Origin: an uncultured Trueperaceae bacterium
GTDB lineage: Bacteria; Deinococcota; Deinococci; Deinococcales; Trueperaceae
Assembly (NCBI GenBank): GCA_963727505.1
Contig: CAVSGP010000009.1
Location: 576,001 to 640,000, forward strand
DNA length: 64,000 nt
Direction: 5' to 3'
Position numbers: made by a program
In this document: one piece after another, positions 32,388 through 35,193 of the stretch
How positions within the stretch are numbered: position 1 is the stretch's first letter
Layout of the letters: every line of letters starts with the position of its first letter

Positions 32388-35193
32388 CTTGAGGGTGCGC
32401 GTGCCGCTTCCCACCTCACGGACCTCGGCGCCCAGGAGGCGCATCCGGAAGACGTTCATCTCCTGGCGGCGCACGTCCTCCTCGCCCATGTAGACCACGC
32501 ACTCCAGGCCGAACAGCGCGGCCGCCGTGGCTGTGGCCACGCCGTGCTGCCCGGCGCCGGTCTCGGCGACCACGCGCCTCTTGCCCATGCGGCGTGCCAG
32601 CAGGGCCTGGCCGATGGTGTTGTTGATCTTGTGCGCGCCCGTGTGGTTGAGGTCCTCGCGCTTGAGGTAGATGCGGGCGCCGCCGAGCCTCTCGCTCAGG
32701 GCGTCCGCGCGGTAGAGGCGGCTGGGCCGCCCCACGTAGTCGCACAGATGGCGCTTCAGCTCCGCCTGGAAGGCGGTATCGGCACGCGCGCTCCGGTACG
32801 CCTGCTCGAGGTCGTCGAGCGCTGGGATGAGCGTTTCCGGGACGTAGCGGCCGCCGTAGTCACCGAAGCGTCCGCGCGCATCGGGAAGCGGGAACATGGT
32901 GCCTCCTCGTGGATACGAAGGAATCTAGGGGGTGGTGGAGCGGGATGCGGGCGAAGGCGGACGCCACCAGTGCTGATGGTGCCACTTGAAAGTGCGAGGG
33001 GTGCGTACCCGCGCGCGCGTCCTCATGGCGCCAGTGTATGCCCGCGATTCTGTGCTGGCAAGCGTGCCGGCGCGTGCTAGGCGTGCTGCAACAGCCAGGT
33101 CTGTTCCTCCGTGCTGAGCCGGCTCGGCGTGCGCGGGATCCGCGCCAGGTCGAAGTCCGCCACCAGCTCGGCTGCCGCGATCTCCTCGAGTCCGTCCGTC
33201 AATCCCAGCCCCCGCGCCAGCACGCCGACGACCCGTTCGGGCCGCACGCCCGCTTCGCGCAGGGCGCGCAGCGTCAGGGAGCCGCGGCGCTTGGCCAGGC
33301 GCTCACCGTGTTCGTCGAGCAGCAGGGGCACGTGCGCGAAGGCGGGCGCTGCGTGACCGAGGGCCCGGTAGAGCAGGAGCTGTGCAGCGGTGGAGGGGAG
33401 GAGATCGTCGCCGCGCACCACCTCGCTCACCGCCATGGCGGCGTCATCGACGACGGTCGCGAGCTGGTACGCCCAGAGGCCGTCGGCGCGCCGTACCACG
33501 ATGTCCCCCACGTCGTGCTCGGCGGCCGCACGCTGCGGGCCGGCCACGACGTCGTCGAAGCCGATCGTTCCGGGGGCGATCCGGAAGCGCAGGCTAGGCA
33601 CCTTGCCTTCGGCGCGTTTTCGCTCGGCCAGGCGAGCGTTGGCCTTGCGCTCGAGCTCGCCGTAGACGGGCGAGCGGCCGTGGGGCGCGCTCGCGACCTG
33701 GTGGAGCTCCCGGCGGGAGAGGTAGCACGGGAAGATGCGTCCCTGACGTTGCAGGACCGCGAGGGCCGCGGCGTAGCGTTCGCCGCGCTCGCTCTGACGG
33801 TAGGGACCGAGGGGCCCACCGATGTCGGGCCCCTCGTCCCAGTCGAGCCCCAGCCAGGTGAGCTCGCGCAGATTGCCGTCCACCGCTTCCGGCACTGTGC
33901 GGTGGGCGTCCAGGTCGTCGACCCGGAGCACGAGCTCGCCGCCCCGCGAGCGCGCCCGCAACCAGGCCAGCAGCGCCGTCCGGGCGTTGCCGAGGTGGAG
34001 CCAGCCGCTGGGCGAGGGCGCGTACCGTCCCCGGTAGGCGCCCTCCGCAGCCGGCGTCATCGGAACGTGCGTCGCGGAGACCGGCGGTCTCAGGCCTTTC
34101 CGGCCTTGGTCATCGCCTCCAGCATGGCCGCGCCCATATCGCTGGGCGTCTGCGCGACCACCACGCCGGCGGCTTCGAGGGCGGCGATCTTGTCCTTGGC
34201 CGTGCCCTTGCCCCCGGAGATGATGGCACCAGCGTGACCCATGCGCTTGCCCGCGGGCGCGGTGGTCCCAGCGATGAAGGCGGCCACCGGCTTGGTCATG
34301 TTCGCCCGGATCCAGGCCGCGGCCTCCTCCTCGGCCGAGCCCCCGATCTCACCGATCATGATGACCCCCTCGGTGGAGGGATCGTCGTTGTACAGCCGCA
34401 GCACGTCGACGAAGTTGGTCCCGTTCACGGGGTCGCCGCCGATGCCCACGGCGCTGGTCTGGCCCAGACCGTTGTCGGTGAGATGCTTGACCGCCTCGTA
34501 CGTGAGGGTGCCGGAGCGGCTGACCACGCCGATGCGCCCGCCCTGGTGGATGTAGCCGGGCATGATGCCGATCTTGCACTCGTGCGGGGTGATGACACCC
34601 GGGCAGTTCGGTCCCACCAGGCGTGTCGCCGACCCCTCCAGCACGCGGTTCACCCGCACCATGTCCATGATGGGGATGCCCTCGGTGATGGCCACCACCA
34701 GCTCCAGACCGGCGTCAGCGGCTTCCAGGATGGCGTCGGCCGCGAAGGGAGGCGGTACGAACACCACGCTGGCGTTGGCGCCGGTGGCTTCGACCGCCTC
34801 GCGCACGGTGTCGAAGATCGGCACCTCGACGCCGTAACGATCGTCGCGTCCGGGCACGCCGCTGTGGTCGGTCTCGCCCTCGAAGCGCTCGACCTGGCCG
34901 CCACGTCCCGGGTGCACCGCCCCGACCATCTGGGTGCCGTAGGCGATCGCCTTGTCGGTGTGGAAGCGACCGGCGCTGCCGATCCCCTGCACCAGGACCT
35001 TGGTGTTCTTGTCGACGAGGATGCTCATTTCGCCAGCTCCACGATCTTCTTGGCCCCGTCCTTCATATCGTCGGCGGAGAGGAGGTTCAGCCCCGACTCC
35101 GAAAGGACCTTCCTTCCGAGATCGACGTTGGTGCCCTCGAGTCGGACCACCAGTGGCACCTTCAAGCCGACCTGCTTGACGGCCGCGACCACA

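What a model noticed while it worked through the whole genome (the two positions that open the first line are those of the whole stretch)
32925..33026. Sequence-conserved leaderless Trp leader peptide before trpBA without a terminator
An uncalled 33-codon ORF (minus strand) starts 6 nt behind the -10 box and ends 28 nt before trpB. Its 15-residue core ending in Trp is conserved as protein, unlike ordinary attenuator peptides, and is followed by C-rich, G-poor RNA without a U-tailed hairpin. It is a candidate stalling peptide controlling trpBA, probably through Rho.
Evidence so far: Core matches at 9-15 of 15 residues in 17 of 18 Trueperaceae, 8-11 in 3 of 3 genomes of f3, 12 in 1 of 3 of f4, and at most 5 in the 6 genomes of f2 and f5; 66 synonymous against 47 non-synonymous codon differences in the 17 relatives with at least 10 matches. 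Leaderless start 5-8 nt behind a -10 box in 15 Trueperaceae. 31 C against 11 G in the 64 nt after the core.
(Added by a program. Inside this text positions count along the whole contig: contig position 576,001 is position 1 of the stretch shown here. "Call 12" and the like, gene names such as g00115 and contig names such as C1 are that model's own, and its searches are not shown. The text may have been shortened before it was handed on; [...] marks where a part breaks off. The agent that wrote the report below was given it as the finding of a first reader that could run no searches.)

Follow-up and report, generated by a model that had tools for sequence, protein, structure and literature searches.

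The report
Reversed tryptophan switch peptide before trpBA
A tiny unannotated peptide gene in front of the last two tryptophan-making genes is conserved as a protein across three bacterial families, and in one group its RNA is wired so that a stalled ribosome would switch the genes off rather than on, the reverse of the textbook tryptophan switch.

Summary
The leader ORF is real. Its 13-residue core (RTPRSFKWHHQRW-type) is under purifying selection: pN/pS 0.12, against 0.51-0.78 for the trpE leader of the same genomes. It precedes trpB in 80 of 89 Trueperaceae genomes read, and in Meiothermus-, Oceanithermus- and Thermus-type genomes; it was not found in 19 genomes of two other families or outside the phylum. 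New here: Meiothermus-type relatives do carry a terminator, behind an extra covarying hairpin, and the predicted switch mirrors their own trpE attenuator (13 of 13 loci each). A ribosome held at the Trp codons gives termination; one that has passed gives read-through. Thermus keeps Trp-free versions. Best reading: an arrest peptide whose stall turns trpBA off, probably on Trp excess (0.35), by terminator in Meiothermus and probably by Rho here, where the C-rich tract lies beyond the stalled ribosome. Against it: starvation would stall it too. Rho, the ligand and the arrest itself are inferred; there are no expression data. No description was found in seven literature searches or in earlier notes of this scan.

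The parts
33056..33061 (-). -35 hexamer TTGCCA
33033..33038 (-). -10 hexamer TACACT, 6 nt before the ATG (leaderless start, inferred)
   Evidence: spacing 5-8 nt in 55 of 59 relatives
32925..33026 (-). leader ORF, 33 codons plus stop
   Evidence: no Pfam or NCBIfam match
32967..33005 (-). conserved 13-codon core, ORF residues R8-W20 (core positions 1-13); proposed arrest sequence
32964..32966 (-). second terminal Trp codon (core position 14), common but not invariant
32911..32956 (-). C-rich unstructured tract (24 C, 5 G, -0.6 kcal/mol); its first 29 nt are sense codons of the ORF; candidate Rho loading site
32900..32926 (-). weak hairpin (-6.6 kcal/mol) that pairs the trpB Shine-Dalgarno GAGGAGG at 32908-32902
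31686..32897 (-). trpB, tryptophan synthase beta
   Evidence: TIGR00263 590.6 bits
30871..31689 (-). trpA, tryptophan synthase alpha
   Evidence: PF00290
33077..34060 (-). upstream neighbour gluQRS; not part of the leader
   Evidence: NF004315 281.5 bits

Best explanation
The ORF is a cis-acting arrest peptide translated from the first bases of the trpBA transcript. The core contacts the ribosome exit tunnel and holds the ribosome at about core residue 13, and that arrest switches trpBA OFF. In Meiothermus-type genomes the held ribosome leaves hairpin X:Y intact, so the intrinsic terminator forms; a ribosome that passes the Trp codons melts X, and Y captures the terminator's 5' arm. In this genome, which has no terminator, the held ribosome leaves the C-rich tract naked for Rho, while a passing ribosome translates across it and ends 27 nt before a poorly exposed trpB start. 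The likeliest trigger is excess free tryptophan (product feedback). Shown: the ORF, selection on the peptide, the link to trpB, covariation of X:Y. Predicted by folding: the direction in Meiothermus. Inferred: translation (about 0.9), arrest (0.75), the same direction in Trueperaceae (0.55), Rho as effector here (0.5), Trp as ligand (0.4).
For: Protein-level selection: third-position entropy 1.09 against 0.41 and 0.47; K7, H10, Q11 are invariant in 70 distinct cores with synonymous codons in use. Same-genome control: pN/pS 0.12 and identity 0.87-0.94 against 0.51-0.78 and 0.37-0.49 for trpE leaders. Selection relaxes after core residue 13 (pN/pS 0.66) and the stop follows it directly in 8 of 60, which places any arrest at or before it. 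X:Y starts 14-15 nt after the first base of W13 at -19 to -28 kcal/mol in 13 of 15 loci; 94.9% of cells pair, 4 pairs change on both sides, 0 of 500 shuffles reach the covariation score. Mirror test in the same register: the terminator arm is sequestered at 0.04-0.07 with cover to +9/+12 and 0.58-0.63 at +18/+21, against 0.99 and 0.32-0.36 for trpE attenuators, 13 of 13 each; 11 of 12 distinct metagenome loci agree (overlapping the same species). The stop is at +13 or later in 20 of 20 terminator loci but earlier in 14 of 60 Trueperaceae. Nine of 21 Thermus-type cores have no Trp codon, yet the group shows pN/pS 0.35 overall and 0.21 in register. No TrpR or TRAP was found in this genome (97% complete).
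Against: A stall at the Trp codons under starvation would also switch the genes off, which is a trap for a biosynthetic operon. Every leader read outside Thermus keeps at least one Trp codon, often tandem WW, the mark of codon sensing. Folding the whole leader with only the footprint blocked gave no clean switch; the mirror result needs the upstream RNA removed. Of the 7 other terminator loci only 3 follow the direction, 3 show no switch and 1 looks classical. The antiterminator Y:T5' is weak (-4 to -12 kcal/mol) and T5' hardly varies, so it has no covariation support; X:T5' still pairs in 88% of cells. In Trueperaceae whose stop follows the Trp directly, held and finished ribosomes uncover the same RNA, so read-through would need reinitiation, which is not shown; stop-to-trpB distances reach 363 nt. 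Thermus versions also show decay (indels, early stop, core changes) and a second promoter downstream. An EamA-family transporter gene behind the leader in some genomes fits induction by an excess better than repression, if it exports. The loci are kin, so counts overstate independence. No ribosome or RNA data.
Confidence: 0.35

Rival explanations
1. Starvation sensor, stall = ON. Lack of charged tRNA-Trp holds the ribosome at the Trp codons, the conserved peptide sharpens or stabilises that stall, and the parked ribosome keeps Rho off the short leader. This is the natural completion of the first reader's idea.
For: Simple physiology. At least one Trp codon in every non-Thermus leader read. C>G in 60 of 60, with a floor of 41 nt between footprint and SD. 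rho in 77 of 81 family genomes. The ORF itself is C-rich (15.4 C, 10.8 G per core). One terminator locus, L214, folds in the classical direction.
Against: Reversed switch in 13 of 13 main Meiothermus-type loci. The C-rich patch tracks the SD, not the Trp codon (8.2 C / 3.6 G next to the SD, 6.7 / 5.8 next to the Trp, 26 long leaders), and half of the spacers are 74 nt or longer. Trp-free cores stay conserved in Thermus. The trpE leader senses Trp without a conserved peptide.
Confidence: 0.25
2. Arrest = ON, but one to three codons past the Trp pair or at the stop, induced by a substrate (indole or indole-glycerol phosphate, the signal of Pseudomonas TrpI) or held by default and released by Trp (as copper releases CruR). 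The parked ribosome covers X in Meiothermus and blocks Rho in Trueperaceae.
For: One direction serves both outputs. Cover to +18..+24 is the ON window. trpBA stands apart from trpE, and Deinococcaceae-type genomes have a palindrome found only at trpB in 5 of 5 genomes, suggesting a signal of its own. An EamA transporter is co-transcribed in some genomes. TrpI and CruR precedents are in PMC9105386 and PMC12360218 (passages).
Against: Arrest peptides normally act in a fixed register (own knowledge). The stop directly follows core residue 13 in 8 of 60 Trueperaceae, and stop positions range from +4 to +79. Residues past 13-14 are not conserved.
Confidence: 0.2
3. Translational attenuation as in the mycobacterial polycysteine leaders: ribosome position opens or closes the trpB Shine-Dalgarno.
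For: The trpB SD is less exposed than background (0.21 against 0.41); there is an SD hairpin in this genome.
Against: SD exposure changes by more than 0.2 in only 1-3 of 60 leaders between free, stalled and at-stop states. There is no fixed-register hairpin in Trueperaceae.
Confidence: 0.08
4. The released peptide works in trans, or the ORF merely delivers ribosomes to trpB; conservation reflects a binding partner rather than the tunnel.
For: Protein-level conservation does not say where the peptide acts. Leader-driven reinitiation has been proposed (PMC4833913, passages).
Against: Both termini are free in length and sequence. All non-chance hits with enough downstream DNA sit before trpB or an EamA-trpB unit. 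X is fixed relative to the Trp codons.
Confidence: 0.08
5. No peptide function: a conserved DNA or RNA element, or chance.
For: No Rfam, Pfam or NCBIfam support either way.
Against: dN/dS 0.14 in the coding frame; shifted sense frames 1.4-2.5; the antisense frame sharing third positions gives 0.30. Arg codons of both codon families are used at invariant positions.
Confidence: 0.02

Closest known systems
Classical trpL/trpE ribosome-mediated attenuator, including the leaderless Deinococcus deserti trpE leader (PMC4007540, Table S9)
   Same: Leaderless short ORF with Trp codons before trp genes. In Meiothermus-type genomes an intrinsic terminator follows, and the first switch element starts 13 nt after the last Trp codon in both leaders.
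   Different: The peptide is conserved. An extra segment Y reverses the predicted output. There is no terminator in Trueperaceae. Table S9 lists 14 leaders and none at trpBA.
E. coli TnaC (free-Trp-sensing arrest peptide; PMC8450073, PMC12360218)
   Same: Sequence-dependent leader peptide, Trp-related genes, candidate Rho site downstream.
   Different: No terminal Pro, no fixed stop, controls biosynthesis rather than catabolism, the C-rich tract is not adjacent to a fixed stall site, and arrest is predicted to switch off. Sequence similarity was not tested with a tool.
SpeFL and CruR, ligand-controlled leaders that mask a Rho site (PMC12360218, passages)
   Same: Short conserved leader with a C-rich region and no intrinsic terminator (Trueperaceae, Oceanithermus-type).
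   Different: Ligand unknown; no RAPP or CXXC motif; the same peptide is wired to an intrinsic terminator in another lineage.
Mycobacterial leaderless polycysteine sORFs (bioRxiv 10.1101/834739, passages)
   Same: Leaderless sORF, no terminator, amino-acid pathway downstream.
   Different: There the sORF RNA pairs with the downstream SD; no such switch was found here.
Fungal arginine attenuator peptide (recalled, no paper read)
   Same: Works like the best reading: end product induces arrest, arrest lowers a biosynthetic gene.
   Different: Eukaryotic scanning block; unrelated sequence.
Pseudomonas TrpI-trpBA (PMC9105386, passages)
   Same: trpBA regulated separately from trpE.
   Different: A LysR protein sensing indole-glycerol phosphate, not a leader peptide.

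Membership tests
Classical Trp attenuator (trpL type) | Short upstream ORF with Trp codons | tested here: met
   but absent from 9 of 21 Thermus-type cores
Classical Trp attenuator (trpL type) | U-tailed terminator before the first gene | tested here: not met
   none in the window and 1 weak case among 92 non-Thermaceae scan loci; met in Meiothermus-type relatives
Classical Trp attenuator (trpL type) | Ribosome held at Trp codons favours the antiterminator | tested here: not met
   folding only: opposite in 13 of 13 main loci, control trpE met in 13 of 13; 1 of 7 other loci classical
Classical Trp attenuator (trpL type) | Peptide sequence free apart from the control codons | tested here: not met
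   pN/pS 0.12 against 0.51-0.78
TnaC-type metabolite-sensing arrest peptide | Conserved tunnel-facing residues within about 13 residues of the stall site | tested here: met
TnaC-type metabolite-sensing arrest peptide | Arrest at a stop codon in fixed register, terminal Pro | tested here: not met
   stop from +4 to +79
TnaC-type metabolite-sensing arrest peptide | Ligand-dependent arrest | not testable with these tools
   needs toeprinting or cryo-EM
uORF-controlled Rho-dependent attenuator | C>G, weakly structured tract of about 60-90 nt | tested here: inconclusive
   C>G in 60 of 60, top 0.9% in this genome, but only 41-55 nt beyond the footprint in the short leaders; length rule from PMC12360218
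uORF-controlled Rho-dependent attenuator | rho gene present | tested here: met
   (77 of 81); near-universal, so weak
uORF-controlled Rho-dependent attenuator | Stalled ribosome covers the Rho site | tested here: not met
   tract starts beyond +13 and tracks the SD
uORF-controlled Rho-dependent attenuator | Termination depends on Rho | not testable with these tools
   no RNA holder listed
Translational attenuator (polycysteine sORF type) | Ribosome position switches SD pairing | tested here: not met

The most novel reading that the evidence does not exclude
A bacterial end-product-sensing arrest peptide that replaces a repressor: excess tryptophan arrests the ribosome on a 13-residue sequence and shuts a biosynthetic operon through an attenuator wired in reverse, with the same peptide plugged into an intrinsic terminator in one lineage and into Rho in another.
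Probability: 0.3. Interest if true: 0.88.

Novelty: new variant of a known kind. Interest (0 to 1): 0.74.

Why it matters
Few bacterial metabolite-sensing arrest peptides are known, and the Trp- and ornithine-sensing ones tabulated in PMC12360218 turn catabolic genes on. This one is short, has natural variants in about 130 genomes, and comes with a same-genome classical attenuator as control. If the reversed wiring holds, tandem Trp codons before a trp gene cannot be read as a starvation sensor by default. The carriers are close kin of Thermus thermophilus, whose ribosome is a standard structural model (own knowledge), so toeprinting and cryo-EM are direct.

Tried and rejected
Rfam: three chance-level hits only. 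Pfam and NCBIfam: nothing for the peptide. The large protein search does not take a 33-aa query, so public annotation of the peptide is untested. Viral contigs: 0 hits. RNA data: no RNA holder listed; the one small-share run, laid, has no cover on the leader and says nothing. SD switch: rejected. Whole-leader constrained folding: noisy, no consistent switch, including for a stall at the upstream Trp. X pairing directly with the terminator arm, which would restore the classical direction: costs 2.1-15.5 kcal/mol in 13 of 13 and breaks at one pair in 7 of 18, so disfavoured but not excluded. One structure count was set one column off and is void (redone). A TrpR-type repressor complementary to the leader: 4 weak hits in 261 genomes, and the two read are LuxR-type response regulators. 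TRAP: not found. Reading the Thermus version as a pure relic: frameshifts and a second promoter support it, pN/pS 0.21-0.35 does not; left open. The terminator was mis-called for L182, L183 and L191 and not found for four loci; supersede it. Earlier scan notes: one unrelated note shown nearby, none by sequence or words.

Full report
Numbering. Core positions 1-13 are ORF residues R8-W20 (window 33005-32967). '+n' counts from the first base of the W13 codon unless stated. Family names other than Trueperaceae are inferred: f3 Thermaceae (Meiothermus-type and Thermus-type genera), f4 Marinithermaceae, f2 Deinococcaceae, f5 unnamed.

The observation. The ORF, the promoter 6 nt before it and the lack of a terminator are as described. 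Downstream lie trpB and trpA, upstream gluQRS. trpE is elsewhere, on contig C4, with its own leader.

Range. I read trpB upstream regions chosen by trpB alone: 89 of the 117 family genomes with a trpB match. The core scores 9 or more of 13 in 60 of 70 and in 18 of 19 further genomes. Two more carry it by eye (G109, score 7; G017, beyond the scored window), giving 80 of 89. Of the other nine, seven belong to genus g19, where trpB starts close behind the -10 box; one is cut by a contig end; one (G119) has a coding region upstream. In other families: 7 of 8 f4 loci score 8 or more and the eighth is a diverged variant; 5 of 5 Meiothermus-type loci score 11-12; 21 of 28 Thermus-type loci have a shifted version; 0 of 12 f2 and 0 of 7 f5 loci exceed 6. 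An exact degenerate pattern over 185,579 genomes gave 112 hits, 100 with the trpB N-terminal motif behind them. Three look like chance (L120, L159, L198). Of the other nine, three precede an EamA-family gene, two precede trpB missed by my motif (L202, L206) and four have too little downstream DNA. Titles were shown for 80 hits only, many just 'uncultured bacterium', and diverged forms outside the phylum would be missed. Metagenomes gave 84 hits: 76 with the trpB motif, 4 before EamA, 1 trpB missed by the motif, 3 unresolved.

Selection on the peptide. In 70 distinct cores (kept at score 8 or more, which biases towards conservation) K7, H10 and Q11 are invariant and R1, T2, R4 nearly so; third positions vary most; dN/dS is 0.14. 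The core matches the trpB N-terminal motif in constraint (pN/pS 0.24 against 0.22) while its flanks are at 0.59 and 0.66. The control is the trpE leader of the same genomes: pN/pS 0.78 against 0.12 in 13 Trueperaceae and 0.51 against 0.12 in 12 Thermaceae (one trpE row, G063, may not be the true leader frame). No Trp position is universal: W8 is kept in 34 of 70, position 13 is F in 6 (then W14), three g16 genomes end HHQYL with W8 only, and 9 of 21 Thermus-type cores have none.

Three outputs behind one peptide. (a) Meiothermus-type: a U-tailed terminator (19 of 20 flagged, the twentieth, L127, seen by eye). In 13 of the 20 a hairpin X:Y of -19 to -28 kcal/mol starts at +14/+15 whatever the stop position, followed by Y:T5' and the terminator. 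X:Y covaries (the structure was derived from these sequences and kin inflate the control). I folded the nascent RNA with the ribosome-covered part removed, counting from the last Trp codon, and did the same for trpE attenuators (13 of 15 parsed; 8 genomes are in both sets). trpE behaves as in the textbook: terminator arm sequestered 0.99 at +9/+12, 0.32-0.36 at +18/+21. trpBA is the mirror: 0.04-0.07 and 0.58-0.63; 13 of 13 each, at 37 and 55 C. The first switch element starts 13 nt after the last Trp codon in both leaders, so the control calibrates the footprint. Of the other seven loci three agree, three show no switch and one looks classical. Folding the whole leader did not reproduce the switch. 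(b) Trueperaceae and Oceanithermus-type: no terminator and no fixed hairpin. C exceeds G in 60 of 60; this genome's tract is in the top 0.9% for C-G and among the 2% least structured of 566 leaders from my own rough gene calls. The patch follows the SD in 26 long leaders. The SD is poorly exposed but not switched. rho is present. (c) Thermus-type: altered core, several broken copies, and a second promoter-like TTGGCY-17-TAGGAT downstream, seen by eye.

How it most likely works. Selection ends at core residue 13 and stops can follow at once, so an arrest in fixed register sits there (inference). In Meiothermus that position gives termination (prediction). For a biosynthetic operon, 'stall = off' points to product excess rather than codon hunger (inference), which also explains why the peptide matters and why Trp codons can be lost. 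In this genome the ORF runs on over most of the C-rich tract, so a held ribosome exposes it and a passing one covers it, the same direction. The main objection is that starvation would stall the ribosome at the same codons and keep the genes off; I have no tested answer to it. Many Trueperaceae stop right after the Trp, where this reading needs reinitiation at trpB. Hence 0.35, with 0.25 for starvation sensing through Rho and 0.2 for an arrest just past the Trp pair that switches on.

What is known. Seven full-text searches listed no paper on a trpBA leader in this phylum. Seen: PMC4007540, passages and supplementary file 3 part 122 with Table S9 (file 1 not searched); PMC4833913, PMC12360218, PMC8450073, PMC10219788 and PMC9105386, passages only; bioRxiv 10.1101/834739, passages, supplements not seen. 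The library lacks most subscription journals; older comparative surveys of attenuators (recalled, not seen) and the supplements of PMC4833913 may list this ORF as a Trp leader, though I know of none that notes the reversed wiring. It works like a metabolite-sensing arrest peptide; it fails membership of the trpL type (no terminator here, reversed switch, conserved peptide) and of the TnaC type (no fixed stop).

Verdict. Real, conserved and apparently undescribed; a new variant of leader-peptide attenuation. The reversed Meiothermus switch is the most surprising part and rests on covariation and equilibrium folding, not on experiment. G090, an unpublished genome, is only one count in the trpB and rho tallies. 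Interest 0.74.

Noticed in passing
L102, L103, L105, L107-L110, L275-L280 (f2 trpB promoters): Deinococcaceae-type genomes have leaderless trpB with a palindrome TAGAC-N5-GTCTA upstream, found once per genome and only at trpB in 5 of 5 genomes searched: a likely operator of an unknown trpBA-specific regulator. Not a TrpR.
   Followed up: partly
G000 C4 near 612200 (L112); L245-L258: The Trueperaceae trpE leader also shows no U-tailed terminator by eye, unlike Thermaceae and f4, and keeps CGA-TGG at its last Trp in 13 of 14 loci, often inside a hairpin; its output mechanism is open.
   Followed up: partly
L281, L282, L115, L308, L313, L333, L345: An EamA/DMT transporter gene stands directly behind the leader, and in L281 and L282 it lies between leader and trpB; its substrate may reveal the signal.
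   Followed up: partly
L017, L036, L037, L057, L064, L066, L070 (genus g19): Leader lost; trpB starts 8-10 nt behind a -10 box that overlaps the end of the upstream gene.
   Followed up: no
L091-L098, L225-L244 (Thermus-type): Second promoter-like site and a conserved GGCGC-loop-GCGCC hairpin with a T run just before the trpB SD, also in genomes without the leader; a short segment upstream could pair with its 3' arm.
   Followed up: no
alignment A1/A2, between Y and the terminator (e.g. L206, L197): By eye the sequence GGGC-TTTT-CTC|G resembles a polymerase pause consensus 11 nt behind the upper X:Y stem (consensus recalled, not tested).
   Followed up: no
G000 C2:17773-19122: Tryptophanase-like gene, 510 bits, below the TIGR02617 cut-off; upstream region not read.
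   Followed up: no
L285 (G031): An Rce1-like CAAX protease gene lies between the leader and trpB; this genus has lost the terminal Trp.
   Followed up: no
L055 (G101): One base missing in a C run shifts the core out of frame with its start; assembly error or decay.
   Followed up: no
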